Of a stretch of DNA of 64,000 bases, positions 29,191 to 54,942 are shown in pieces. The position numbers were made by a program, and so were the translations under genes. The notes beneath the pieces are model-generated. The model had not been told where the DNA came from, did not search any database, and saw only the letters and a list, made by a program, of their open reading frames with translations. Source of the DNA: Candidatus Poribacteria bacterium. GTDB taxonomy: Bacteria > Poribacteria > WGA-4E > PCPOR2b. Within the stretch, counting starts at the first letter, position 1. Each line of letters opens with the position of its first letter. The DNA lies in assembly GCA_003635265.1 (NCBI GenBank), contig PYIZ01000010.1, positions 258,626-322,625 on the forward strand, read 5' to 3'.

Positions 29191-30054
29191 ATGAAAGCCT
29201 TGGAAAAGGGAAATCATCTGATAATCTGGGGGGATACCCTTGATGCTTTGTCGAGCAAAATTCCTGATAGCTCAGTAGATTTAATCTTTACAGATCCTCC
29301 CTACAACATTGGCAAAAACTTCAATGGCAGAAAGGATAAGTGGAGTTCTGAGGAGGCGTACCTCGAATGGTGCTACCAGTGGATTGATCTTTGTCTCCGT
29401 AAGTTAAAAGACAAAGGCAGCTTCTATCTCATGGCTGCCACTCAAAATATGCCCTATTTTGACATCTACCTTCGGGATAAAATCTGCATTCTTTCTCGTA
29501 TAATTTGGTCTTACGATAGTTCGGGGGTCCAAGCCAAGAAATATTACGGCTCTCTATATGAACCGATTCTTTTCTGCGTAAAAGATAGGCAGCAATACAC
29601 TTTTAACGCTGATGATATTCTCGTTGAGGCAAAGACAGGGGCAAAGCGTAAATTAATCGATTACCGAAAGCAGGTTCCCACACAATACAGTTCAAGAAAA
29701 GTGCCGGGGAATGTTTGGGAATTTCCGCGTGTCCGCTACAGAATGGAGGAGTACGAAGAACATCCAACTCAGAAACCCGTTGCATTGCTTGAACGAATTG
29801 TTCGGGCAAGTTCAAACCCCGGCGATCTCATCCTTGACCCCTTCGCTGGTACATTTACAACATGTTTTGTCGCGAAAAAATTGGGGCGTCAATCAATCGG
29901 AATAGAGATAGAGGAAGATTACGTCAAAATTGGGTTGAGAAGACTTCAAATAATGACACATTATAGAGGGGAAGAATTGAAACGAGAACCTCGCTCTTAT
30001 GAGGAACAGGCGAACCCAACCCAACAGACCCTCAAGTTATTCGAGGGAAACTAG
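29191..30054 (+). CDS. DNA methyltransferase, beta-class (DPPY; N6-adenine or N4-cytosine)
   Basis: Motif IV TDPPYNIG precedes motif I ILDPFAGTFTTCFVAKKLGR, which is the beta-class order. The gene is AT-rich. Confidence 0.85.
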   Translation: MKALEKGNHLIIWGDTLDALSSKIPDSSVDLIFTDPPYNIGKNFNGRKDKWSSEEAYLEWCYQWIDLCLRKLKDKGSFYLMAATQNMPYFDIYLRDKICILSRIIWSYDSSGVQAKKYYGSLYEPILFCVKDRQQYTFNADDILVEAKTGAKRKLIDYRKQVPTQYSSRKVPGNVWEFPRVRYRMEEYEEHPTQKPVALLERIVRASSNPGDLILDPFAGTFTTCFVAKKLGRQSIGIEIEEDYVKIGLRRLQIMTHYRGEELKREPRSYEEQANPTQQTLKLFEGN

Positions 30055-31173
30055 ATGGAACACGAATTTACGCAGCAAATTCATGTTGTTTTGCGCTCCG
30101 ATTTTGGCGAAGCAGCAGAAGATATTTTTGAGAAAAGCGAACTCTTGCAGTACCTCAATCTCAAAACCAGATCCGCCACGCGTGGATCAAAAGCAAGAGG
30201 TAGCTTTGCCAATCTTTACGCACTCTACGTGTTAATCGAAGATTACCTTAACCACGGATTTGATGAAAAAGGCAACTACTCAAATTATCAAGGGGCAGCA
30301 TTTACAGACTTATTTAAGCGTCAAAGAGAATTGCCTTTTGGTAATAAGCTGCAGAATCATGCGCTCAACCACCGCATGAACAGCGATTTTCGGAAGTATT
30401 TTCCACAAACCGAGTATATCCCAATTTTACGCGATGTTGAAACAAAGCGTTATTGGATCAATGAAAATCTCCTAAACTTTTCCGTTGCAGGCGATTCGCA
30501 CAATATTGCAAGATCTATTATCAGTATCGTAAATCGCTATATAGAGACGAAGCGGAGTGCATTTGAGGCATTTATTCAAACGTGCGAACGTTTGAAAAGC
30601 ATTAACGAAGAGAGTATAGAAAATGTAGAAGCATTTATTGAAAGCCTCCTCGAACCAAACGCAGATGCACGTATCTTCGAAATTGTCAGTTATGCCATCC
30701 TAAAGTATTACTATAGCAATCAAACCGTTTATTTCGGTTTTGATCTGGAGAGCGTAGAGGAAGAAAACCTCACACTCTATAAAACTGGTCGCACCAATGC
30801 CAATGATGGCGGTATAGACTTTGTTATGCGTCCATTGGGCAGATTTTTTCAAGTGACAGAAACTCTAGACGTAAGAAAATACTTTTTGGATATCGATAAA
30901 ATTGAACGCTATCCTATATCCTTTGTCATCAAATCCGAGGAATCTATTGATGTGCTCAGGCAAAGACTCCAAGCGGGAGCAGAAAAACAGTACCTTATAA
31001 CGGCTATAGTCAGGAAATACATGAATTGTGTTGAAGAAATCATCAATATTCCTGTTTTGAAAAATAGGTTTAATGAGGCGGTGCAGGAAGGCTATTTGCA
31101 GAGTATTCTCGATGAGGTGATTAAACAAAGTAAAGTCGAGTTTAACTATGAAGAGCCGGCTGATACCGTTTGA
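30055..31173 (+). CDS. putative type II restriction endonuclease partner of the methyltransferase
   Basis: The ATG directly abuts the methyltransferase TAG. A possible PD-(D/E)xK-like core is ARIFEIVSYAIL...NANDGGIDFVMRP...FQVTE. One sampled line is 33% GC. I cannot name a specific family. Confidence 0.5.
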   Translation: MEHEFTQQIHVVLRSDFGEAAEDIFEKSELLQYLNLKTRSATRGSKARGSFANLYALYVLIEDYLNHGFDEKGNYSNYQGAAFTDLFKRQRELPFGNKLQNHALNHRMNSDFRKYFPQTEYIPILRDVETKRYWINENLLNFSVAGDSHNIARSIISIVNRYIETKRSAFEAFIQTCERLKSINEESIENVEAFIESLLEPNADARIFEIVSYAILKYYYSNQTVYFGFDLESVEEENLTLYKTGRTNANDGGIDFVMRPLGRFFQVTETLDVRKYFLDIDKIERYPISFVIKSEESIDVLRQRLQAGAEKQYLITAIVRKYMNCVEEIINIPVLKNRFNEAVQEGYLQSILDEVIKQSKVEFNYEEPADTV

Positions 31174-39881: not shown

Positions 39882-39953
39882 TGGGCGGTCGCCAAGCGGT
39901 AAGGCACGGGTCTTTGGCACCCGCATGCGTAGGTTCGATCCCTACCCGCCCAG
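39882..39953 (+). tRNA. tRNA-Gln (anticodon UUG)
   Basis: Hand-folded cloverleaf: 7-bp acceptor stem with U1-A72, D arm GCC/GGC, anticodon stem CGGGU/ACCCG with loop CUUUGGC (anticodon at 39914-39916), and T arm GUAGG-UUCGAUC-CCUAC. CCA is not encoded. It starts 1 nt after the ispE stop. Confidence 0.85.
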
Positions 39954-45282: not shown

Positions 45283-46311
45283 TTAGGCGCTATCACCAGC
45301 GATTTCTCGAACCTTTTCAAAGAAAGCCTTCTTACGTTCTGTGTTGAGTCCCCACTGCACAGGCACACTCTGGTAACCATCACAATAATTATTCTCGCCC
45401 GGATCAAAATAACCCCACGACGCATACTCGCTGATTGCAGCCACGAAGTTATTAAGCGGCTTATCGAAATCGAAGTGATCATCTTCGTTGAACAGAATTG
45501 GCATCGTTCGGTAGCCGGGCACCTGCCGCGCCTGCTGCACCATCTCTGCAATGCGGTTAGGGTCGCGGACACCGTTACCGTGCATCAGCAGAAAATCTGA
45601 TGTTCGCACGACGTTCTCCCGCGAGACTCTTCCCCCACCGTAACTCGTTCCAACAAGCAATCGCCGTCCATCGCGAGTTATCCCTTTAACCCGTTCAATT
45701 AACTCATGTACGCGGTCCGGCATCAAGATCTCGTGAATATATCGCTGAACGTTGCATTCATTGTTGACCTCAACGAGGACATTCGTATACTCCTGATCAA
45801 AAATCCAGTTGGTAACATTATCCACCCCACGAACTACCGCCGCCTCGTCACGAATACGTTCATCTTGCCCAAAATAGAAGTAACCCAAAATCACAACCAT
45901 CCCAAGTTCATCGGCACGATCGATGATACGGGTAAGTCGATCAATATAGTCGGGATTCAGGCTGCCATCGGCTTCAATCCCTGTATTGTGCCATGGCTGC
46001 CCCTTCGAGTATCCTTCGGGGCTGCCGCCTTGAAGATTGATTGTGAACGCCAATAAACCGTAGGATCTCCATTCTGGCATCGCCTCTAGAAACTCTCGCG
46101 TGTTCCTTTCCGCGTCCCACTCGCCGGTGTCAGGATATGCCCACATTCCAACAGTCTCTGGATTTCGATCGTCGAAAACCCCCTGCACCATCCGCGAATT
46201 GAGGAGTAACCCCTCGACCCTATGTCCATTATAAAACCGCCCCGGATAGGTGGTTTTTCCGTTGATATAAAACGCATCACCAACAATACTTATAGCAGTC
46301 TGTCTTTCCAT
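45283..46311 (-). CDS. putative glycoside hydrolase (TIM-barrel, GH5-like NE motif)
   Basis: VLVEVNNECN resembles the GH5 acid/base region. The family was not confirmed. Confidence 0.4.
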   Translation of the reverse strand: MERQTAISIVGDAFYINGKTTYPGRFYNGHRVEGLLLNSRMVQGVFDDRNPETVGMWAYPDTGEWDAERNTREFLEAMPEWRSYGLLAFTINLQGGSPEGYSKGQPWHNTGIEADGSLNPDYIDRLTRIIDRADELGMVVILGYFYFGQDERIRDEAAVVRGVDNVTNWIFDQEYTNVLVEVNNECNVQRYIHEILMPDRVHELIERVKGITRDGRRLLVGTSYGGGRVSRENVVRTSDFLLMHGNGVRDPNRIAEMVQQARQVPGYRTMPILFNEDDHFDFDKPLNNFVAAISEYASWGYFDPGENNYCDGYQSVPVQWGLNTERKKAFFEKVREIAGDSA

Positions 46312-46372
46312 ATAATTTCCTCTCTGAGTCTATATCAACTACTTAACCGTAAAGACCTAGGCTTGTGGTAGT

Positions 46373-46406
46373 GTAGGTTGGGTTGAACAGGAACTGTGAA
46401 ACCCAA
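46373..46406 (-). repeat. compact copy of the TTGGGTTTCAC / GTTCAACCCAACCTAC element
   Basis: Exact reverse complements of the 16-mer (46373-46388) and 11-mer (46396-46406) seen at 17089-17188, here only 7 nt apart. Confidence 0.5.
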
Positions 46407-46413
46407 TTCAATC

Positions 46414-48348
46414 CTAAAACGGCACCAGCCCCTTGTCGCCATGCCAAGGAAAAGCATAGCTCGGTTGATTCACAAAACGGTGCATCCCGGCTTCCAACCG
46501 AATACTTGTGGAGGGAGGTAGTTCGACCACAAAATATTTGCCCTCAACGGGAGCGACCTTCTCCGACGTTGCTCCTTGTTCATTCGTCTGAAACTGCACC
46601 TGAGTGAACCGGTGTTCTCCAAAAGCACCCGCCTGCACAATCACATTCCGTGTTTCGGTTCGGTTGAGGTTCACAAGCTGGAGGCCCACCCGATCTGCCT
46701 CCAATTTATAAACCAAAGCGGCAACATCTTTCGGAAGACCGGGACGCTCAAGGTCCATGTCGAAATAGCGCACGGTTGTGCGTAACAGTCCACCATTGTA
46801 AATAGGCTGCGGTGAGCCCATCGTCACCTGCGTAAGCCCCTTGGTCACCACAGGGTTCGGGGGCCACCGGTTGTCCGCAATAATCTGCGCGGGATCACGT
46901 GAATCACGACGCATATACTCATACATCGCCATAACATACTGATACTCCGCCTGCAACCGCTTTTGGGGCCAATCGGGATTTACACCGTCGTAGTAGTTAA
47001 AACGCGCTTCCAGATTCCCACTGCTTCGATCCCCAGCAACCTCGACCTCATTCCAGTCACTCTCCTTTTCACCAGCGCGCAGCTTTGTAATTAGCTCATA
47101 ATCCCTCGCCTCCATTGACGCGTGATACACCCGCGCCAACCACTGAATTCCTCTCGGCTGATACCCCTCCCAACCGTTGGGCGTAATCCGCGTCGGCACA
47201 AGCAATTGACCATCTTCTCGCGTCTTAGCAAGACTCAACAAAAATTCAATTTGCGAGCGGATAAACTCCAGATAGCCAAAATCACCGGTGAGCAACAACG
47301 CGCATTCGGAGGCAATGGTAGCCGCTAAAAACGCATTGCGCGCAGAGTTACGACTATTCCAGCCGTAAAATCCACCCCACCACTGACCGTTGCGTTGTTC
47401 CCCTATCTTCCCTGTGGGTCCAACATTGTCCGGAATAATCCCATTATTATCCCGAGTCCGATCCATCCAAGCTTCTGTATATTCCAGCACCCACCGTTTA
47501 TATTTCTCCTCACCGGTGTAAAGATACGCATTGGTAATCAGCCCCGTAGCTGCCAAATTATCAGGGATATCGCCGTTAAGAATAACATCGTCGAAGATCT
47601 TCAGAATCTCTTCCGCGCGCACCGGATTCTCAAACCAGTCATCCTCTAAATCGTTGACGACCGGGTAGAGATTTGACCGTTGAGCGTGCCCATGGGCAAC
47701 GCCACCCGGATAGTAAATCGGATCCAACAGCACCTTCGCCATCGCAAGGTCTGCATGAAAGCGAGGACCAACACTACCGTGGAAAGGCGAACGGATAATT
47801 TTATATTCAGGGTCATAGTTGGGTGCTTTAGGATCCTCAGCCATATACATCGCTGCGAACCGCTTGGCGCGCCGGATGTTTTCCGGATGGGTTGGGTCCG
47901 CCAACCCAAAGCAATAAAAAGACTGATTACCTTCACCCATGTGAAACCAGTCCGCGGGACCATTTAGGTTGTAGTATTCATTGTGGAGTTGCACCCGAAA
48001 CTCTGGATGTTGCGGATCCTCGTCCCGTCGCACTACGCCATCGTCATAAAGTCGGGTAATTGCATTCCATTCTTGGAGACCGATCTCAAGCACTCGCTCA
48101 GCCGCGCCAATGGCATAGAGAAGTCCTTTATATGAGTGCGCCTCATACGTATCATCGACATCGTTTACATTATAAGGAGTGCCATCAAGACGACCATACT
48201 TCTGCGCTGCTAACTCTACCGCCTCCTCCATGAGGCAGATAAGTTGACGCTCCATCAGTGCCCACGTCGGCGGAGATGAGATCTCAGTCGCCTTTATAGA
48301 TACTATATTTTCTGGCATGTTTCGTCCTGCCATCGTCCAACCTCCCAC
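46414..48348 (-). CDS. large hypothetical protein (possible alpha/alpha-toroid glycoside hydrolase-like)
   Basis: A 644-aa intact ORF with uniform coding character. I recognise no diagnostic motif, and the start is uncertain. Confidence 0.45.
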   Translation of the reverse strand: MGGWTMAGRNMPENIVSIKATEISSPPTWALMERQLICLMEEAVELAAQKYGRLDGTPYNVNDVDDTYEAHSYKGLLYAIGAAERVLEIGLQEWNAITRLYDDGVVRRDEDPQHPEFRVQLHNEYYNLNGPADWFHMGEGNQSFYCFGLADPTHPENIRRAKRFAAMYMAEDPKAPNYDPEYKIIRSPFHGSVGPRFHADLAMAKVLLDPIYYPGGVAHGHAQRSNLYPVVNDLEDDWFENPVRAEEILKIFDDVILNGDIPDNLAATGLITNAYLYTGEEKYKRWVLEYTEAWMDRTRDNNGIIPDNVGPTGKIGEQRNGQWWGGFYGWNSRNSARNAFLAATIASECALLLTGDFGYLEFIRSQIEFLLSLAKTREDGQLLVPTRITPNGWEGYQPRGIQWLARVYHASMEARDYELITKLRAGEKESDWNEVEVAGDRSSGNLEARFNYYDGVNPDWPQKRLQAEYQYVMAMYEYMRRDSRDPAQIIADNRWPPNPVVTKGLTQVTMGSPQPIYNGGLLRTTVRYFDMDLERPGLPKDVAALVYKLEADRVGLQLVNLNRTETRNVIVQAGAFGEHRFTQVQFQTNEQGATSEKVAPVEGKYFVVELPPSTSIRLEAGMHRFVNQPSYAFPWHGDKGLVPF

Positions 48349-48665
48349 ATACGAAAAGAGGAAAAAGGCTTTGTCGCAATCTGCTAGCTGATTGCAACAC
48401 AGGGATGTTCATTATCTCATATCAGTATCTATTTTTCAACGCCAATTCCCGTGCTACAGCCAAATTTTCATGCCAAGCAAAAAGTTTGACAAAGTTTGCC
48501 ACATTGGCATAAACTAATACCTGTTATGGTGCTCCCAAACTTCTCATACACAATCGCCATTGTCCCATTTCAATTTTGCGCGAACCATACTCTCTTCGCT
48601 CACGAAACGCCCGCAACCACCCTTAGACACTTAAACTATTCGTGAGAGGTACTCCGAAAAGCAGC

Positions 48666-50564
48666 ATGGCAATCAACAACCTCAAATTACCAGAAACCAC
48701 CAATCCATCTCTTGGGAAACCTGCCGACGCATCAGTTTATCAAACGACAGTCCAACGGAAGGCTGGTAGGATCGGAAAACTCCATTTGCAGCGCAATGGG
48801 ATAGCACTCCCACCCCTATCGACACCAATTTTGTATCCTGTCCTCTCATTCATGACCAGCACCAGCACAAATGGCGGCGGAATATGGAAATACCTGCTGA
48901 AAGATGTTATGAAACATGACGTACCGATCCTTTCACAGGTACTGCATTTCCTCGATTTTAATATCACAGGCAAACACATCGGTTATTGGCGTGAAATGTC
49001 CATGCGTGAACGCTACCGGGAGCCGAATGGCCCCTATGACGCTCCCATGTTTTTGGACTCCGGCGGCTTCAAACTACTTTATAACGCTGGGCTCTCGCTC
49101 TCAGAATTCGGTATCCATAAGGAGACAGAAGCGGATGATATCTTAGATTTTCAACTCAGTCTTGGGGGAGATATCATAGCCTCCCTCGATTATCCACTAC
49201 CTCCCGGTCTCGTCCGTTCCGAAGCGAAAACTCGTATGAAGCGAAGCCTTCAGAACGCATTCCATGTTGCAGAGCGACTCGCAGAAATGGACAATCCACC
49301 TTACCTCTATATTTGCTGCCACGGACAATCCAGAGAAGATATTCAGAACTACGTCACTCAGGTTTTTGAACGGCTAACGGAGGTTCCGCCCTTCGGACTT
49401 GCAGTCGGCTCGCTTGTACCACTACGAGGAGACAACGATTCCGAGGTACTATCACGGATATGTGGTGTGCTGGACGCTATTCCGGAATCAGCACGGGATC
49501 GGATACCCATCCACGCCTTCGGGGTCTCTGGCAACCTAACTCCAGTACTCGCCTATTTGGGAGTCGATAGTTTTGATAGCACAAGTTATATTCAAGCAGC
49601 GCGTAGTCTGAGCTATTCACATCCGGAGACACAGAAAAAACTAAAGATCATGGAGTTGGATTCAATGGAGTGCACCTGTCGGATTTGTCGAGAAACTTGT
49701 CTCGGAGAGATGCAGCAGGCATTCATGGATCCGATACGCTATCGACGCACCTCAACAGGAAAATACAAAAGCTACTACTACGCCAAAATTGCGCTCCACA
49801 ATTTCGAGATGGAGGTCAAAACCCTCGACGACATGGTGCAGGCGATTAAAGCCGACAATGCGCTTGAAGCACTCGTTGAACACGTCTCAAAGGCACGCGG
49901 TGTTCGAGAAGCAGCCAACTGGCTCGTCGAAAACAGAGCTGAGTTTGCAACGAAAATGTCAAAAACTGTTATCCCTGTTCCCAAACGTTCAAAAACTCAA
50001 CGCGCGAAACAAAACCTCTCACTGAACTACACCCCCGACTCATTTTCTATCCCACCAGATTATCAGCCACCGCCAGAAAAACGGATTCTTTTGACAATCC
50101 CTTGTGCCGGAAAGAAGCCGTACTCCTTTTCACGCACCCATTCCATTGTGAACACCACACTCCGCACCGCATTTGGCAAGGATCAGCAGTTCATCCACAA
50201 AATCACCCTTTCAGGGCTCTATGGTCCCGTCCCCGAAGAATTTGAGTCGGAAAAAGCAGTAGTCCGCTACGATTTTCAATTGTTGCCTCGAAACGCCACT
50301 CAAATTCAACTTGGGGCAGATCGGTTCAACACCTATCTTGATAAACATGGGCAACACTACGAACTGATTGTCGGTTATGCTACCAGTAACGCCTACCGCA
50401 AGGTCCTAGGACTAGTCCAAAGGTATCATCAGGATTTTATCCTGCTGCCCACGAAACCTAAGCAAAAACGACTTTCTGAGTTTTTCCGACACATCCACCT
50501 CGACGAACTTGTAGAGGTATTATCCAGTGTTTTAGGTAGAAAAAAGGAACAGCCTTCGAGTTGA
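48666..50564 (+). CDS. tRNA-guanine transglycosylase (TGT)-fold domain fused to an archaeosine synthase (ArcS)-type motif domain
   Basis: TGT hallmarks: FLDSGGFKLL (catalytic Asp region), IHAFGVSGNLTPVLAYLGVDSFDS, and Zn site CTCRIC...LHN. The C-terminal domain carries IPCAGKKPYSFSRTHS, which matches PC-X3-KPY-X2-S-X2-H (nt 50100-50141). Confidence 0.7.
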   Translation: MAINNLKLPETTNPSLGKPADASVYQTTVQRKAGRIGKLHLQRNGIALPPLSTPILYPVLSFMTSTSTNGGGIWKYLLKDVMKHDVPILSQVLHFLDFNITGKHIGYWREMSMRERYREPNGPYDAPMFLDSGGFKLLYNAGLSLSEFGIHKETEADDILDFQLSLGGDIIASLDYPLPPGLVRSEAKTRMKRSLQNAFHVAERLAEMDNPPYLYICCHGQSREDIQNYVTQVFERLTEVPPFGLAVGSLVPLRGDNDSEVLSRICGVLDAIPESARDRIPIHAFGVSGNLTPVLAYLGVDSFDSTSYIQAARSLSYSHPETQKKLKIMELDSMECTCRICRETCLGEMQQAFMDPIRYRRTSTGKYKSYYYAKIALHNFEMEVKTLDDMVQAIKADNALEALVEHVSKARGVREAANWLVENRAEFATKMSKTVIPVPKRSKTQRAKQNLSLNYTPDSFSIPPDYQPPPEKRILLTIPCAGKKPYSFSRTHSIVNTTLRTAFGKDQQFIHKITLSGLYGPVPEEFESEKAVVRYDFQLLPRNATQIQLGADRFNTYLDKHGQHYELIVGYATSNAYRKVLGLVQRYHQDFILLPTKPKQKRLSEFFRHIHLDELVEVLSSVLGRKKEQPSS

Positions 50565-50569
50565 ACCCC

Positions 50570-50767
50570 ATGAAAACCAAAAACCGAGTGGAAATAGGAT
50601 TGTGTCAAACCTGCCAGCACGTCAAAATAATCGAAAACGCTAATCAGAGCCGTTTCTATCTGTGCCTTCTCTCCGATTCCAACACCGACTTCCGGAAATA
50701 TCCACACCTGCCTATGCTCACCTGCCCCGGCTACCAATCCCAGAAGAAAACACATCATCGGAAATAA
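50570..50767 (+). CDS. small Cys4 (zinc-ribbon-like) protein, 65 aa
   Basis: CQTCQH...YLC...TCPGY. The track start (TTG at 50561) overlaps the upstream stop as TTGA, and the first ATG is at 50570. The ...FRKYPHLPMLTCPGY pattern looks like a conserved small-protein family whose name I cannot recall. Confidence 0.45.
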   Translation: MKTKNRVEIGLCQTCQHVKIIENANQSRFYLCLLSDSNTDFRKYPHLPMLTCPGYQSQKKTHHRK

Positions 50768-51032
50768 TACCCATCTTAACCCGATCAGCTGAATACTCGG
50801 AATTTTTGTATCCTTAACGACTTTGATCTTGAATATCAGCCGTGTTTCCCTTATAATATTTGATACTATGTCAATCTAATATCTCAATCCACCAAACTTA
50901 CTTCCAGATAAGGTTTTCATGCTAAAATATAAAAACAATATGTAAGACTTGGTGGGTATCCGTTGTACTATTGGACTTTTACACCACTTAACCGATCGCC
51001 GCAAGGCGGTCAGGGGTTCGCCGGTAAGTAGG

Positions 51033-51050
51033 GAACAACGATCGTTGTTC
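51033..51050. promoter_or_regulatory. 18-nt perfect palindrome upstream of argD
   Basis: GAACAACGATCGTTGTTC lies 35 nt upstream of the argD ATG and just before the RBS GAGGAGG. It could be an operator or a leader hairpin. Confidence 0.3.
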
Positions 51051-51084
51051 TCCGAATACGCTAGCCCCAAGAGGAGGACACAAA

Positions 51085-52272
51085 ATGACAACCGCTGAAA
51101 TCAAAGCAATGGCTACAGAGTATATTATGAACACCTACGGGGAACGCTCGCTGGCGTTCGTCCGTGGCGAAGAGGCTTACCTCTGGGATGCCGATGGTAA
51201 GAAATACCTCGATTTCCTAGGTGGCTTGGCCGTCAACGGCCTGGGACACTGCCATCCCAACGTGGTCGCAGCAATCCGTGAACAGGCAGGCAAACTCCTG
51301 CATATCTCCAATCTCTACTACATTGAACCGCAAGCCCGGCTGGCAAAGATGCTGATTGATAACTCTGATATGGATCAGTGCTTCTTCTGCAACAGCGGTG
51401 CCGAAGCCAACGAAGCCGGGATTAAACTCGCGCGGAAGTACACAAGAGACCAAGGTAGAGATGCGTACGAAATCATCACGATGGACAACTCGTTCCATGG
51501 ACGTACAATGGCAACGATAACAGCGACCGCTCAACCCAAATATCACAAAGGATTTGAGCCGATGGTTCCTGGGTTCACCTATGTTCCGTACGATGATCTT
51601 TCCGCTGTGGAAGCCGCTATTAGCAGCAAGACCTGCGGCATTCTTGTGGAAGCAATCCAGTCCGAAGGGGGTGTTAACACACCGGGCAGCGGTTACATCG
51701 AAGGGCTGCGCGAACTCTGCGACAAACACGATCTAGTGCTTATCCTCGACGAAGTACAAACCGCAATGGGACGGCTAGGTCCTCTGTTTGGGTATCAAAG
51801 TTACGGCATTATCCCCGATATTATCACAATGGCAAAGTCCCTCGGTGGAGGGGCACCAATCGGCGCGATGCTCGCCAAGGGGCAGATCGCAGCAAGTTTC
51901 GTTCCCGGCACCCACGCCGCGACATTTGGCGGAAACCCGCTGGTGACCGCCGCAGCATGTGCAACGGTCGAAACCATCCTCGATGAAAACCTTGGCGAGA
52001 ATGCGGTTAAAATGGGGGACTATCTGGAATTCAAGTTGATGGGACTCAAAGATCAATACCCGATCAAAGAGGTGCGCGGCAAAGGCCTGCTGCGTGGCTT
52101 GGTACTGTCTGTCGATGCCAACGAGCTCGCCGCCAAGTGTATTGAAAATGGCTTAATCACGATCTGTACAAACGATTATATCCTTCGCTTTTTGCCACCG
52201 CTCAATATCACCGCTGCACACGTTGACGAAGCGGTTTCGATTGTTGAGAAGTCGCTAGCTGAAACTGTCTAG
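51085..52272 (+). CDS. argD: acetylornithine aminotransferase (class III PLP aminotransferase)
   Basis: FCNSGAEANEAGIKLAR, DEVQTAMGRLG and the PLP-lysine context TMAKSLGGG. Confidence 0.85.
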   Translation: MTTAEIKAMATEYIMNTYGERSLAFVRGEEAYLWDADGKKYLDFLGGLAVNGLGHCHPNVVAAIREQAGKLLHISNLYYIEPQARLAKMLIDNSDMDQCFFCNSGAEANEAGIKLARKYTRDQGRDAYEIITMDNSFHGRTMATITATAQPKYHKGFEPMVPGFTYVPYDDLSAVEAAISSKTCGILVEAIQSEGGVNTPGSGYIEGLRELCDKHDLVLILDEVQTAMGRLGPLFGYQSYGIIPDIITMAKSLGGGAPIGAMLAKGQIAASFVPGTHAATFGGNPLVTAAACATVETILDENLGENAVKMGDYLEFKLMGLKDQYPIKEVRGKGLLRGLVLSVDANELAAKCIENGLITICTNDYILRFLPPLNITAAHVDEAVSIVEKSLAETV

Positions 52273-52979: not shown

Positions 52980-54041
52980 ATGGAAGAATGGAAAAAACTC
53001 GTTCGGGATACGGTCAATACACCTGAAAAACTTGCTGCTATCTTCGATGTCGATCTCGACGAGATAAAGCGCGTTCACGACGTATTTCCTATCCGTATTA
53101 ATCCCTACTATTTGAGCCTGATCGAGGAGCCGGGAGACCCGATCTGGAAACAGGTTGTCCCAGATCCAAAAGAACTGATCCGAACCGGATTTGAGGAAGA
53201 TGACCCACTCGGCGAAGAGGATGATAGCCTCGTACCCAACGTCACACATCGTTATCCGGATCGGGTATTGTTTTATGTCAACTACATGTGCCCGATCTAC
53301 TGCCGATTCTGCACCCGAAAACGCAAAGTCGGAGATCCGGACTCCATTCCCGACAACAATATCGAGATGGGTTTGGACTATATCCGCAGTCACCCCGAAA
53401 TTCGCGACGTCATCATCTCCGGCGGTGATTCGATGATGCTGACGGATCGGAAAATTGATTATATTGTCGGCAGCCTCCGTGACATCGAGCACCTCGAAAT
53501 CATCCGAATCGGTTCGCGCGTACCCGTTACCTTGCCACAACGTATCACGCCGGAGTTATGCGCAATCCTCAAGCAGTACCACCCTTTTTATATTAACACC
53601 CACTTCAACCACCCCCGCGAAGTTACGCCGGAAACCGAGAAAGCGTGCGGCATGTTGGTAGATGCCGGTATCCCTGTCGGCAATCAGGCTGTCCTGCTCA
53701 GAGGCGTCAACGACGATCCCACAGTCATGGTTGATTTGATGAAGAAACTCCTCAAAATCCGCGTCAGACCCTACTATATCTATCAGGCAGACCTCGTTTA
53801 CGGAACAGATCACTTCCGCACATCGATCAAAACAGGACTGGAAATTGTCTCCGCATTGCGCGGACACATTTCTGGGCTCGGCGTGCCGCACTATGTGGTT
53901 GATGCACCCGGCGGTGGTGGTAAAATTGCTCTCATCCCAGATCCAGTCGTGTCGTTTGATGATGAGGAGATTCGGTTGAAAAACTACGAGGGGAACACCT
54001 ACAGCTATCCAAGTACCTCCTTCTATGATGAAGATTGGTAG
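52980..54041 (+). CDS. KamA-family radical SAM enzyme (lysine 2,3-aminomutase-like)
   Basis: CPIYCRFCTRK (CxxxCxxC) and the N-terminal PYYLSLI...DPIWKQVVP typical of KamA/EpmB. Confidence 0.85.
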   Translation: MEEWKKLVRDTVNTPEKLAAIFDVDLDEIKRVHDVFPIRINPYYLSLIEEPGDPIWKQVVPDPKELIRTGFEEDDPLGEEDDSLVPNVTHRYPDRVLFYVNYMCPIYCRFCTRKRKVGDPDSIPDNNIEMGLDYIRSHPEIRDVIISGGDSMMLTDRKIDYIVGSLRDIEHLEIIRIGSRVPVTLPQRITPELCAILKQYHPFYINTHFNHPREVTPETEKACGMLVDAGIPVGNQAVLLRGVNDDPTVMVDLMKKLLKIRVRPYYIYQADLVYGTDHFRTSIKTGLEIVSALRGHISGLGVPHYVVDAPGGGGKIALIPDPVVSFDDEEIRLKNYEGNTYSYPSTSFYDEDW

Positions 54042-54440: not shown

Positions 54441-54671
54441 ATGAAAAAAGAACAGATTATCACATGCGATAAAGAAATAGTCAGCGGAACGCCCGTCTTT
54501 GCCGGTACGCGTGTGCCCGTCGCAATACTGATTGACTATCTTAAAGCAGGGGATTCCTTGGAGCGTTTTCTGGAGGGCTTTCCTACAGTCAAGCGTGCAC
54601 AAGCCATCGCTTTTTTAGACATGGCTCTCGAAGCTGCCCTGACGGAGAACCCTAGTGCGCGTGCTGCTTGA
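54441..54671 (+). CDS. DUF433-family antitoxin-like protein
   Basis: ITCDKEIVSGTPVFAGTRVPVAILIDYLKAGDSLERFLEGFPTV is the canonical DUF433 pattern. Confidence 0.75.
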   Translation: MKKEQIITCDKEIVSGTPVFAGTRVPVAILIDYLKAGDSLERFLEGFPTVKRAQAIAFLDMALEAALTENPSARAA

Positions 54672-54942
54672 TGAAAACATAGACCGTTTCTTGAAATCTC
54701 TATTCGCTTCTGATATGGAGGTATTCACCGTCCGTGAGCAGGGTTGGACAAGCATGGAGAACGGTAGATTACTGCGTGTAGCACAGCATGAATTTGATGT
54801 TTTGGTCACGATGGACAAGAATTTGGAACACCAGCAGAACCTAAATGTGATCAATATGGGTATCGTCGTGATTCGAGTCGCAGATTTTCACTGGTATTCA
54901 AGATCTTGTTTGGATTGTCATAAAAAGCCCTGCGAAATATGA
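54655..54942 (+). CDS. DUF5615-family (PIN-like) toxin-like protein
   Basis: VRVLLDENIDRFL...DVLVTMDKNL is typical of DUF5615. A GTG start overlaps the DUF433 stop by 17 nt. Confidence 0.7.
   Translation: MRVLLDENIDRFLKSLFASDMEVFTVREQGWTSMENGRLLRVAQHEFDVLVTMDKNLEHQQNLNVINMGIVVIRVADFHWYSRSCLDCHKKPCEI

What the first reader, a model, noticed from the sequence alone, without database searches (positions are those of the whole stretch)
48666..50767. Bacterial TGT-fold / ArcS-motif fusion protein followed by a translationally coupled Cys4 mini-protein
Seen in sequence: the N-terminal ~390 aa has tRNA-guanine transglycosylase hallmarks. These are DSGGF in the catalytic Asp region, the G-x-G...GVDSFDS segment, and the zinc site C-x-C-x2-C...H-N. 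The C-terminal ~240 aa contains IPCAGKKPYSFSRTHS (nt 50100-50141). This fits exactly the PC-X3-KPY-X2-S-X2-H motif that, to my recollection, was defined for archaeal archaeosine synthase ArcS. A 65-68-aa ORF with CxxC...C...C starts by overlapping the stop (TTGA). Established knowledge: ArcS acts on preQ0 in archaeal tRNA, and TGT-family DpdA enzymes insert 7-deazaguanines into DNA in bacteria and phages. Inference: one polypeptide might both insert and derivatise a 7-deazaguanine in tRNA or DNA. No queC/D/E, folE or other dpd genes are in the window, so the substrate is unknown.
Basis: partly seen in the sequence, partly recalled or inferred. Interest (0 to 1): 0.7.

Follow-up and report, generated by a model that had tools for sequence, protein, structure and literature searches.

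The report
ArcTGT-like / ArcS-like two-domain deazaguanine enzyme
This Poribacteria gene encodes an uncharacterised enzyme that probably swaps a guanine in DNA (less likely RNA) for the base preQ0 and then modifies it. In other microbes the same protein sits inside anti-virus gene clusters, but here it stands alone among housekeeping genes.

Summary
Pfam scores TGT (9.5e-17) and DUF5591, the ArcS-specific core (5e-12). The TGT half is closest to archaeal ArcTGT and far from bacterial queuine Tgt and DpdA. It misses every curated equivalog cut-off, so it is a separate family.

That family is large and occurs in Poribacteria, cyanobacteria, haloarchaeal megaplasmids and many metagenomes. The catalytic Asp pair, most of the zinc site and the PC-X3-KPY-X2-S core are invariant in 50 representatives.

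In 37 of 53 sequence groups the gene lies beside defence-type genes: DpdJ/K/H-like, GHKL ATPase, HerA/NurA, PglZ or DUF262+HEPN. In 9 groups it lies beside queC/D/E/folE. Its two halves match the phage nt-1 DpdA2 and ArcS2 pair, which is reported to make archaeosine in DNA.

The Poribacteria clade is different: it is syntenic, sits among housekeeping genes, and has no preQ0 or dpd-like genes in the window.

The downstream Cys4 ORF is a real gene under purifying selection. It belongs to a widespread small-protein family that elsewhere is not next to this enzyme, so it is not a family-wide partner.

Verdict: a new variant of a known kind. The substrate is not shown; DNA is favoured.

The parts
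48666..50564 (+). ORF for the two-domain TGT-DUF5591 protein (632 aa). An alternative GTG start lies at 48642. Residues 1-19 are predicted disordered, and homologues begin near residue 18.
49035..49886 (+). TGT catalytic (TIM-barrel) domain with its zinc subdomain; Pfam PF01702 match at aa 124-407. The barrel's N-terminal strands start at about aa 24.
49056..49070 (+). DSGGF. D131 corresponds to the general acid/base Asp (ArcTGT and DpdA Asp95). Invariant in 50 of 50 family representatives.
   Evidence: PMC10164549
49188..49190 (+). D175 in 'LDYP', the base-recognition Asp (aligned with 'LDIP' of ArcTGT). Invariant.
49320..49322 (+). H219. It is invariant in the family. E. coli Tgt and ArcTGT have Gln at this position, and a His plays this role in DpdA (His181).
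   Evidence: PMC10164549
49560..49580 (+). GVDSFDS. D304 (nt 49575-49577) corresponds to the nucleophilic Asp. Invariant.
49671..49802 (+). Zinc site: C336-x-C338-x2-C341 and H378 (with N379), aligned with CSCPVC...ALHN of ArcTGT.
50061..50438 (+). DUF5591 (ArcS C1 / ArcS2-type) domain; Pfam match at aa 466-591. The modelled alpha/beta domain (alternating strands and helices) spans aa 474-625.
50100..50141 (+). PCAGKKPYSFSRTH, the ArcS motif PC-X3-KPY-X2-S-X2-H. P, C, K, P, Y and S are invariant; H is present in 41 of 50 representatives.
   Evidence: PMC10516641
50570..50767 (+). Small Cys4 protein gene (65 aa from ATG; alternative TTG at 50561 overlapping the stop as TTGA). It is a real coding gene from a widespread uncharacterised family.
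48486..48515 (+). Promoter-like site upstream of the ORF (consensus match only). No terminator-like site was found on the + strand between the two genes.

Best explanation
The ORF encodes a bifunctional enzyme that modifies nucleic-acid bases. It belongs to an uncharacterised TGT-DUF5591 family.

Step 1 (inferred from conserved residues). The ArcTGT-like domain exchanges a guanine for free preQ0 by the standard TGT double-displacement mechanism. D304 acts as nucleophile and D131 as acid/base. D175 and H219 read the base, and a zinc site is present.

Step 2 (inferred). The fused ArcS-C1/ArcS2-type domain acts on the nitrile of the inserted preQ0. It would give an amidine (archaeosine-type, or a lysine adduct) or, like the related DpdC, an amide.

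Substrate (inferred). DNA is the more likely substrate, for five reasons:
- The tRNA-binding C2 and PUA domains are missing.
- The Gln of tRNA TGTs is replaced by the His seen in DpdA.
- Relatives sit in Dpd-like, BRIGADE-like, BRC-like, HerA/NurA and DUF262/HEPN islands, often with preQ0 synthesis genes.
- The two halves match the phage nt-1 DpdA2 and ArcS2 proteins, which are reported to make dG+ in DNA.
- Haloarchaea carry this gene on megaplasmids; by my general knowledge, not checked here, they also have ordinary ArcTGT/ArcS.

In Poribacteria the gene looks like a vertically inherited orphan with no restriction partner nearby. This resembles an orphan DNA methyltransferase. The downstream Cys4 protein is co-transcribed, and possibly translationally coupled, in this subclade. 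It is not a family-wide component.
For: - Domains.
- Profile against PDB: ArcTGT 4.9e-32, AF0587 6e-13, bacterial TGT about 1e-10, DpdA 2e-3.
- AF2 model: pLDDT 91.4, pTM 0.90. Foldseek gives ArcTGT as top PDB hit. In the viral library, phage nt-1 R9TGF0, which I take to be its DpdA2 (BFVD lists it as uncharacterised), scores 1.5e-8 and the nt-1 DUF5591 protein 1.9e-4.
- Both active sites are invariant in 34 and in 50 diverse members.
- Neighbourhoods. 37 of 53 groups have defence-type neighbours and 9 have preQ0 genes.
- C-domain against DUF6884 (the DpdC type): hhalign probability 90%, E 1.4e-6.
- His in place of Gln: with PMC10164549.
- Phage DpdA2 plus ArcS2 activity on DNA: PMC10516641.
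- Poribacteria clade is monophyletic and free of defence neighbours, with synteny in 8 loci.
Against: - There is no biochemical evidence for any member.
- The window has no preQ0 genes, DpdB, restriction partner or riboswitch. The source of preQ0 and the biological role in Poribacteria are therefore unknown.
- The closest solved relative is a tRNA enzyme (ArcTGT), and the PUA domain is dispensable for ArcTGT activity (title of a paper cited in PMC11298593).
- The housekeeping context and phylum-wide vertical inheritance would also suit a tRNA-modification role.
- The equivalence of H219 to DpdA His181 rests on HMM coordinates, not on a structural superposition.
- The tree is neighbour-joining, midpoint-rooted and without support values.
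Confidence: 0.6

Rival explanations
1. It is a tRNA (or other RNA) modification enzyme: a bacterial counterpart of the archaeal ArcTGT and ArcS steps in one protein, making an archaeosine-like base in Poribacteria tRNA.
For: - The best sequence and structure matches are ArcTGT and ArcS.
- In Poribacteria the gene sits in a conserved housekeeping neighbourhood (rsgA, argD, PPIase) and is vertically inherited.
- ArcS accepts substrates as small as the preQ0 nucleoside (PMC11298593), so a PUA domain may not be needed.
Against: - No C2 or PUA domains.
- The Gln of tRNA TGTs is replaced by His.
- Scores are far below the TgtA and ArcS equivalog cut-offs.
- Relatives are embedded in DNA-directed defence islands.
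- Haloarchaea carry it on megaplasmids. By my general knowledge, not checked here, they also have ordinary ArcTGT/ArcS, which would make this copy an extra one.
Confidence: 0.22
2. It is an anti-invader effector or sensor rather than a self-marking enzyme. It would bind or remove 7-deazaguanine bases in incoming modified phage DNA, or form covalent adducts with that DNA.
For: - In cyanobacteria it pairs with a DUF262 (NsnA / PD-T4-2_A-like) protein and a HEPN protein. By my general knowledge, DUF262 is the N-terminal domain of GmrSD-type enzymes that target modified DNA.
- TGT chemistry is reversible base exchange.
Against: - Co-location with preQ0 synthesis genes in 9 groups argues for writing the mark, not erasing it.
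- A conserved nitrile-modifying domain has no obvious use in an eraser.
- The Poribacteria copy has no defence partners.
Confidence: 0.08
3. It is an ordinary bacterial queuine or preQ1 tRNA-guanine transglycosylase with an extended C-terminus, and the ArcS motif is coincidental.
For: NCBI and JGI annotate members simply as 'tRNA-guanine transglycosylase'.
Against: - The bacterial Tgt model scores 29 bits against a cut-off of 306.75.
- The pocket reads GSLVPL, not GGLAVGE.
- The C-terminal domain scores significantly as DUF5591/ArcS/AF0587, and its motif is invariant across the family.
Confidence: 0.01
4. The Cys4 mini-protein is a dedicated subunit of the enzyme, for example a metal-binding accessory comparable to RaSEA for ArcS.
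For: - The start codon overlaps or lies within 6 nt of the enzyme's stop in 8 loci, as ATGA in L003 and L007.
- The pair persists in L111 with different downstream genes.
- The ORF is under purifying selection.
Against: - The family has 692 clusters. In the other bacteria sampled it is not beside this enzyme; it lies, for example, one gene upstream of infC.
- It is absent next to the enzyme in L022, L024, L025-27 and all non-Poribacteria members.
- In L110 it lies away from any TGT gene. That contig has the same length as the one carrying a 65%-identical enzyme.
- One locus (L004) has Arg in place of the third Cys.
- It has no radical-SAM features and no structural match.
Confidence: 0.15

Closest known systems
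Archaeosine tRNA-guanine transglycosylase (ArcTGT/TgtA; PDB 1iq8)
   Same: - Best sequence and fold match for residues about 24-410.
- The catalytic Asp pair, the base-binding Asp, the CxCxxC...H zinc site, the GG/GS-(V/L)V-PL pocket and the first helices after the barrel all align.
   Different: - 81 bits against an equivalog cut-off of 350.
- No C2 or PUA domains.
- Gln169-equivalent is His.
- Carries an ArcS-type domain instead.
Archaeosine synthase ArcS (alpha subunit; NF040592) and AF0587 (PDB 2q07)
   Same: - DUF5591 core with the PC-X3-KPY-X2-S-X2-H motif.
- Overall order is the same: a TGT-like domain followed by C1.
   Different: - 83 bits against a cut-off of 440.
- The ArcS model aligns only from residue 292 onwards. 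The first ~290 residues, which carry the base-exchange residues, match TGT models instead.
- No PUA domain.
- No RaSEA-like partner was seen. The only nearby radical-SAM gene belongs to the KamA family.
Phage DpdA2 + ArcS2 pair (Vibrio phage nt-1)
   Same: - The model matches two phage nt-1 proteins: R9TGF0 (E 1.5e-8), which I take to be its DpdA2 since BFVD lists it as uncharacterised, and R9TEI9, the DUF5591 protein (E 1.9e-4).
- The DpdA2 + ArcS2 pair is reported to put preQ0 into DNA and convert it to dG+ (PMC10516641).
- This is the closest functional analogue.
   Different: - Here the two activities are on one polypeptide.
- The gene is cellular and chromosomal.
- No phage copy of the fusion was found.
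Bacterial Dpd system (DpdA/DpdB/DpdC plus DpdD-K)
   Same: - Relatives sit next to DpdJ-, DpdK- and DpdH-like genes and preQ0 genes.
- His at the base-reading position, as in DpdA His181.
- The C-domain is distantly homologous to DUF6884, the DpdC-type domain.
   Different: - The DpdA model scores 21 bits against a cut-off of 200.
- No DpdB was seen.
- The window itself has no dpd-like genes.
BRIGADE (haloarchaea; PMC12458937) and BRC (PglZ/HerA/TGT; PMC12839542) defence systems
   Same: - The haloarchaeal loci found here combine queCDE, two TGT paralogues, DUF6884, GHKL, a DpdJ-like helicase and a DpdK-like PLD. That fits the BRIGADE description.
- Loci with PglZ-like plus AAA, or HerA plus NurA-like genes, resemble BRC.
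   Different: - In the passages I read, those papers do not describe the ArcS-like domain. The BRC paper states that no DpdC homologue was detected.
- I did not confirm that their TGT proteins are this family.
- The Poribacteria copy belongs to neither system.

Membership tests
TGT superfamily (Pfam PF01702; TIGR00449 tgt_general) | Profile score above the curated cut-off | tested here: met
   PF01702 61.5 bits (cut-off 26.3); TIGR00449 68.5 bits (cut-off 47.6)
TGT superfamily (Pfam PF01702; TIGR00449 tgt_general) | Catalytic Asp pair, base-binding Asp, and CxCxxC...H zinc site | tested here: met
   D131, D304, D175, C336/C338/C341/H378 align with ArcTGT. The three Asp and H378 are invariant; C336 and C341 are 49 of 50 and C338 38 of 50.
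TGT superfamily (Pfam PF01702; TIGR00449 tgt_general) | TIM-barrel TGT fold | tested here: met
   AF2 pLDDT 91.4. Foldseek: ArcTGT 1.8e-19; bacterial and human TGT about 1e-16 with target-normalised TM-score (TMt) 0.75-0.80.
ArcTGT (TgtA, TIGR00432 equivalog) | Equivalog score of at least 350 bits | tested here: not met
   81.2 bits
ArcTGT (TgtA, TIGR00432 equivalog) | C-terminal C2 and PUA tRNA-binding domains | tested here: not met
   No TGT_C2 or PUA hit in Pfam at E up to 1. The protein ends after the DUF5591 domain.
ArcTGT (TgtA, TIGR00432 equivalog) | Gln at the base-recognition position (IQGS) | tested here: not met
   His219 (CHGQ), invariant in the family
ArcS (NF040592 equivalog) | Equivalog score of at least 440 bits | tested here: not met
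   83.2 bits, aligned only over residues 292-588
ArcS (NF040592 equivalog) | C1 motif PC-X3-KPY-X2-S-X2-H within a DUF5591 domain | tested here: met
   PCAGKKPYSFSRTH at aa 479-492; PF17884 46.3 bits (cut-off 26); motif as published (PMC10516641)
ArcS (NF040592 equivalog) | PUA domain and a RaSEA radical-SAM partner | tested here: not met
   No PUA domain. The only radical-SAM gene nearby (52980-54041) belongs to the KamA/AblA family. The rest of the genome could not be searched.
DpdA (NF041059 equivalog; PADLOC DpdA) | Equivalog score of at least 200 bits | tested here: not met
   21.2 bits; PADLOC DpdA E 5e-5; PDB DpdA 7ui4 E 2e-3 by profile
DpdA (NF041059 equivalog; PADLOC DpdA) | His (DpdA His181) reading the base, in place of the Gln of tRNA TGTs | tested here: met
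   H219 is invariant. The equivalence is inferred from HMM coordinates and PMC10164549, not from a structural superposition.
DpdA (NF041059 equivalog; PADLOC DpdA) | Gene cluster with dpdB, dpdC and restriction genes dpdD-K | tested here: not met
   No DUF6884 or DpdJ/K/H-like gene in the window. DpdB was not specifically searched for. Other clades of the family do have DpdJ/K/H-like neighbours.
Bacterial queuine/preQ1 Tgt (TIGR00430) | Equivalog score of at least 306.75 bits and a GGLAVGE pocket | tested here: not met
   29.2 bits; the pocket reads GSLVPL
ArcS2 (phage stand-alone DUF5591) | DUF5591 core that converts dPreQ0 to dG+ in DNA together with a separate DpdA | not testable with these tools
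   The fold matches the phage nt-1 DUF5591 protein. Activity needs an experiment. Here the domain is fused, not stand-alone.
DpdC / DUF6884 | Pfam DUF6884 match | tested here: not met
   No DUF6884 hit for the window protein. Only distant profile-profile homology: probability 90%, E 1.4e-6.

The most novel reading that the evidence does not exclude
Poribacteria, and possibly cyanobacteria, carry a constitutive archaeosine-type or lysyl-preQ0-type 7-deazaguanine mark in their chromosomal DNA. A single DpdB-independent polypeptide, domesticated from the modification module of defence islands, writes it. The tightly coupled Cys4 protein would serve as a lineage-specific metal-binding accessory. 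This would be the first phylum-wide, housekeeping-style 7-deazaguanine DNA modification in bacteria.
Probability: 0.25. Interest if true: 0.75.

Novelty: new variant of a known kind. Interest (0 to 1): 0.55.

Why it matters
Known 7-deazaguanine DNA modification uses separate proteins: DpdA with DpdB and DpdC in bacteria, and DpdA with ArcS2, Gat-QueC or QueF in phages. This family would put insertion and derivatisation on one chain. It appears to be the writer module of several recently named or unnamed defence islands: BRIGADE-like, BRC-like, HerA/NurA and DUF262/HEPN. In the passages of the literature I could read, its ArcS-like half was not noted.

The distant homology between DUF5591 (ArcS) and DUF6884 (DpdC) suggests a common origin for the enzymes that act on the preQ0 nitrile. 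The Poribacteria orphan copy gives a directly testable case of a defence-derived base modification kept for another purpose. Cultured cyanobacteria that carry the family, such as Allocoleopsis franciscana PCC 7113 and Nostoc, make the experiment feasible.

Tried and rejected
- **preQ1 or other riboswitch upstream:** none found, at Rfam gathering thresholds over the whole window or at E up to 1 over 48200-51100.
- **Phage origin:** no fusion in IMG/VR, only TGT-only relatives at 21-25% identity. No tblastn hit in INPHARED phages at E up to 1e-5.
- **preQ0 or dpd-like genes in the window:** none, using local HMMs.
- **KamA-family radical-SAM gene at 52980-54041 as a RaSEA analogue:** rejected. 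It scores as AblA-like lysine 2,3-aminomutase. It is syntenic only in close Poribacteria loci and is absent next to the enzyme in L013, L024 and L026.
- **Cys4 protein as a family-wide partner:** rejected.
- **Structure of the Cys4 protein:** moderate model (pLDDT 76) with no PDB match (best E 2.3).
- **Taxon names for distant members from cluster look-ups:** little gained.
- **Phillips et al. 2010 (the ArcS discovery paper):** not held, so the statement that the canonical ArcS N-domain lacks base-exchange residues could not be checked. I rely only on the HMM alignment range.
- **Genome-wide search of Poribacteria genomes for queC/D/E, tgt or yhhQ:** not possible.
Full report
**Observation.** The + strand carries an ORF from ATG 48666 to the stop at 50564, encoding 632 aa. 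An in-frame GTG lies at 48642.
- DSGGF, aa 131-135
- GVDSFDS, aa 299-305
- CTCRIC, aa 336-341
- HN, aa 378-379
- PCAGKKPYSFSRTH, aa 479-492, nt 50100-50141

A small ORF follows. It is 68 aa from TTG 50561, which overlaps the stop as TTGA, or 65 aa from ATG 50570, which lies 5 nt after the stop. It contains four cysteines.

**Domains.** Pfam scores the protein as TGT (aa 124-407, 9.5e-17) plus DUF5591 (aa 466-591, 5.2e-12). Both are above the curated cut-offs. NCBIfam gives:

| Model | Score (bits) | Cut-off (bits) | Note |
|---|---|---|---|
| ArcS NF040592 | 83 | 440 | aligned over residues 292-588 only |
| ArcTGT TIGR00432 | 81 | 350 | |
| tgt_general superfamily | 68.5 | 47.6 | passes |
| bacterial Tgt | 29 | 306.75 | |
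| DpdA | 21 | 200 | |

PADLOC gives only a weak DpdA hit. The protein is therefore a member of the TGT superfamily and of DUF5591, but of none of the characterised equivalogs. The literature confirms that PC-X3-KPY-X2-S-X2-H is the signature of the ArcS C1 domain. It also confirms that canonical ArcS is organised as Nt(TGT-like)-C1-C2-PUA (PMC10516641; PMC5699537). The protein here amounts to Nt + C1 without C2 and PUA, so 'fusion' is a loose term.

**Organism and family.** Close relatives (84-89% identity) lie in seven Candidatus Poribacteria genomes, in the same gene neighbourhood. The word-indexed database lists more than 100 clusters at 63% identity or above. The exhaustive 50%-identity library gives 100 representatives at E up to 1e-30. 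Many of these are full-length at 32-48% identity. Named members include Nostoc, Dendronalium, Allocoleopsis franciscana, Limnoraphis and Coleofasciculaceae, all annotated only as 'tRNA-guanine transglycosylase'. Members also occur on megaplasmids of the haloarchaea Haladaptatus and Natrinema.

**Conservation.** In an alignment of 34 diverse members the following are invariant: D131, S132, G134, D175, D304, C338, C341, H378, N379, P485 and Y486. In 50 representatives below 80% identity:
- Invariant: D131, D175, H219, G248-S249, V251, D304, H378, and P479, C480, K484, P485, Y486, S489.
- Less conserved: H492 is present in 41 of 50, C336 and C341 in 49 of 50, and C338 in 38 of 50.

Both halves are thus under strong constraint on their putative catalytic residues.

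**Structure.** The AlphaFold model is confident (pLDDT 91.4, pTM 0.90). It shows a TIM barrel with a zinc subdomain, long linker helices (aa 368-432), a low-confidence linker, and an alpha/beta domain of alternating strands and helices (aa 474-625).
- A profile search of PDB sequences gives ArcTGT 1iq8 at 4.9e-32, AF0587 (2q07) at 6e-13 for the C-domain, bacterial and eukaryotic TGT near 1e-10, and DpdA 7ui4 at 2e-3.
- Foldseek against PDB puts ArcTGT first.
- Against viral models it finds phage TGT/DpdA-type proteins. These include Vibrio phage nt-1 R9TGF0 (1.5e-8), which I take to be its DpdA2 because BFVD lists it as uncharacterised, the nt-1 'DUF5591 domain-containing protein' (1.9e-4), and a YaaA-like protein.

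The nt-1 DpdA2 + ArcS2 pair is reported to insert preQ0 into DNA and convert it to dG+ in E. coli (PMC10516641). The window protein looks like those two proteins on one chain.

**Active-site detail.** The alignment with ArcTGT pairs these segments:
- DSGGF with DSGSF
- LDYP with LDIP
- GSLVPL with GGVVPL
- GVDSFDS with GVDLFDS
- CxCxxC...HN with CSCPVC...ALHN

The review PMC5699537 attributes the preQ0 (rather than preQ1) preference of ArcTGT to V197/V198 replacing L231/A232. The family has L250/V251 and lacks the bacterial GGLAVGE motif. At the position where E. coli Tgt and ArcTGT have Gln (IQGS), the whole family has His. The TGT-only paralogue found next to it in haloarchaea also has His there. 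In Salmonella DpdA a His (His181), together with Asp130, reads the base (PMC10164549). The equivalence is inferred from HMM coordinates, so I treat it as a lead.

**Genomic context of relatives.** I fetched 80 metagenomic loci plus genome loci. I called ORFs, clustered the neighbours and annotated the clusters with Pfam, PADLOC and NCBIfam. Among 53 sequence groups (80% identity), 37 have defence-type neighbours within 8 kb and 9 have preQ0-synthesis genes. Many contigs are short, so these counts are lower bounds. Recurrent arrangements:
- **(a) Haloarchaeal.** queC-queE-queD(-folE), the enzyme, a DUF6884 protein (PADLOC PDC-M57A, weak DpdC), a second TGT-only paralogue (~413 aa) and a GHKL ATPase. 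These often come with a DpdJ-like helicase (3.6e-49) and a DpdK-like PLD (3.4e-12). This fits the published description of BRIGADE systems, said to be exclusive to halophilic archaea (PMC12458937).
- **(b)** The enzyme with an unknown 259-aa protein, a DpdH-like NTPase, and a second copy of the enzyme.
- **(c)** The enzyme with HerA and a NurA-like protein.
- **(d)** The enzyme with a PglZ-like protein and an AAA ATPase. This resembles the BRC system, whose authors list a TGT but state that no DpdC homologue is present (PMC12839542).
- **(e) Cyanobacterial.** The enzyme is followed by a DUF262 protein (NsnA 1.2e-58, PD-T4-2_A 1e-36) and a HEPN protein, in genomes with otherwise different flanks.

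Profile-profile comparison shows that the C-terminal domain is distantly homologous to the DUF6884 proteins (probability 90%, E 1.4e-6). 'LLxxPCSxxKPY' aligns with 'LLVQSCSKTK', and 'SGLYGPVP' with 'LSAKHGLI'. DUF6884 is the domain reported for DpdC (GATOR-GC preprint), which converts preQ0-DNA to the amide dADG (PMC10164549). Two different enzyme families acting on the preQ0 nitrile therefore appear to be related.

**The Poribacteria copy.** A neighbour-joining tree (midpoint-rooted, no support values) places the window protein in one clade with L022, L013, L024 and L027. None of these has defence-type or preQ0 neighbours. The sister clades do.
- In the window the neighbours are rsgA, a sugar-phosphate isomerase-like TIM barrel and two conserved proteins without a Pfam match. 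Downstream lie argD, a cyclophilin and a KamA-family radical-SAM gene.
- G+C content is that of the surroundings.
- Local HMMs find no QueC/D/E, FolE, DUF6884, GHKL or DpdJ/K/H-like gene in the 64 kb.
- There is no riboswitch.

The copy thus looks like a vertically inherited orphan. A cluster member (P0423) of a distant representative, P0131 at about 35% identity, is also labelled Poribacteria. The phylum may therefore hold both kinds.

**The Cys4 ORF.** It is conserved in the eight closest loci. Differences fall 518: 200: 138 on codon positions 3: 1: 2. Synonymous changes outnumber non-synonymous ones only in this frame. It is therefore a real gene. In L003 and L007 its ATG overlaps the enzyme's stop (ATGA), and elsewhere the gap is at most 6 nt. 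Coupling is plausible.

However, a profile search finds 692 clusters of 60-80-aa proteins with the same invariant pattern, GLCxxC...F.xC.L...KYPxLPxLxCxGY. They have no Pfam or NCBIfam family. In the other bacteria sampled, these genes are not beside this enzyme. They sit one gene upstream of infC-rpmI-rplT, two genes upstream of a NIF3 gene, or directly downstream of an outer-membrane beta-barrel (TonB-receptor-like) gene.

Within Poribacteria the picture is mixed:
- The pair is kept in L111, which has different downstream genes.
- The small gene is missing next to the enzyme in L022 and L024-27.
- In L110 it is not beside any TGT gene. That contig has the same length as the one carrying a 65%-identical enzyme.
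- One locus has Arg at the third Cys.
- Its model (pLDDT 76) has no PDB match.

It is an interesting uncharacterised metal-binding-type mini-protein, but not a demonstrated partner.

**Mechanism.**
- *Shown:* domain identity, conservation, fold and gene contexts.
- *Inferred, step 1:* D304 attacks C1' of a target guanine nucleotide with D131 as acid/base, and preQ0 replaces guanine.
- *Inferred, step 2:* the DUF5591 domain, through C480, K484, Y486, S489 and H492, adds an amine or water to the nitrile.
- *Inferred substrate:* DNA is favoured, at about 0.6 for the model as a whole. The reasons are the absence of C2 and PUA, the DpdA-like His, the defence and preQ0 contexts in relatives, the megaplasmid-borne copies in haloarchaea, and the phage DpdA2/ArcS2 analogy.
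- *Main rival:* a tRNA role remains possible (about 0.2), given the ArcTGT affinity and the housekeeping context in Poribacteria.

**Novelty.** Within the searchable literature I found no description of this TGT-DUF5591 family as such. Two recent comparative-genomics papers mention TGT genes or a deazaguanine cluster in systems that match some of the contexts found here. I rate the finding a new variant of a known kind, of moderate to good interest. The enzymatic logic is predictable from known parts. The single-chain writer, its breadth across defence islands and the orphan Poribacteria copy are not described, and they are testable.

Noticed in passing
window 52980-54041 (+): KamA-family radical-SAM gene, closest to AblA lysine 2,3-aminomutase (476 bits against a cut-off of 525), 2.4 kb downstream on the same strand. 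It is tempting because ArcS uses lysine and a radical-SAM partner. However, it is syntenic only in the closest Poribacteria loci and is not RaSEA-like.
   Followed up: partly
window 50570-50767; P0302-P0421; L102-L107: The Cys4 mini-protein belongs to a large family (692 clusters) of 60-80-aa bacterial proteins with no Pfam or NCBIfam model. The invariant pattern is GLCxxC...C...KYPxLPxLxCxGY, and the predicted structure has no PDB match.
   Followed up: partly
L043 483-7858; L068 5231-13259; L108 (Haladaptatus plasmid NZ_CP119784.1): Haloarchaeal clusters hold two or three TGT-family genes, a short DUF6884 (DpdC-like) protein, a GHKL ATPase, queCDE/folE, and DpdJ/DpdK-like genes. These are probably the BRIGADE systems of a 2025 preprint. 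L108 carries two full-length copies of the two-domain enzyme side by side.
   Followed up: partly
L009 10001-13621; L011 10001-13853; L034; L038: A conserved cyanobacterial triad: the enzyme, a DUF262 protein (NsnA / PD-T4-2_A-like) and a HEPN (MAE_28990 / RiboL-PSP) protein, in genomes with otherwise unrelated flanks.
   Followed up: partly
C-domain of A1 against cluster 2 (DUF6884), e.g. L043 4620-5081: Profile-profile homology between the ArcS-type DUF5591 domain and DUF6884, the DpdC domain (probability 90%, E 1.4e-6). This suggests a common origin for the enzymes that act on the preQ0 nitrile.
   Followed up: partly
P0153 (880 aa), P0187 (847 aa): Some family members carry a second, degenerate DUF5591-like repeat after the first (for example 'LLLMPSPGRLPY').
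   Followed up: no
window 29191-31173 (+): A 287-aa ORF with a DPPY-type DNA methyltransferase motif is followed directly by a 372-aa ORF. This may be a restriction-modification pair, 18 kb from the finding. Not annotated with any library.
   Followed up: no
window 54441-54942 (+): Overlapping DUF433 and DUF5615 ORFs, which look like a toxin-antitoxin-like pair. A DUF433 gene also lies directly upstream of the enzyme in Nostoc L011, which is probably coincidence.
   Followed up: no
window 45283-48348 (-): Two proteins (342 aa and 644 aa) with no Pfam or NCBIfam match are conserved in all close Poribacteria loci. They are transcribed divergently from the enzyme gene.
   Followed up: no
window 39882-39953 (+): A single tRNA gene, the only Rfam match in the window at gathering threshold.
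   Followed up: no
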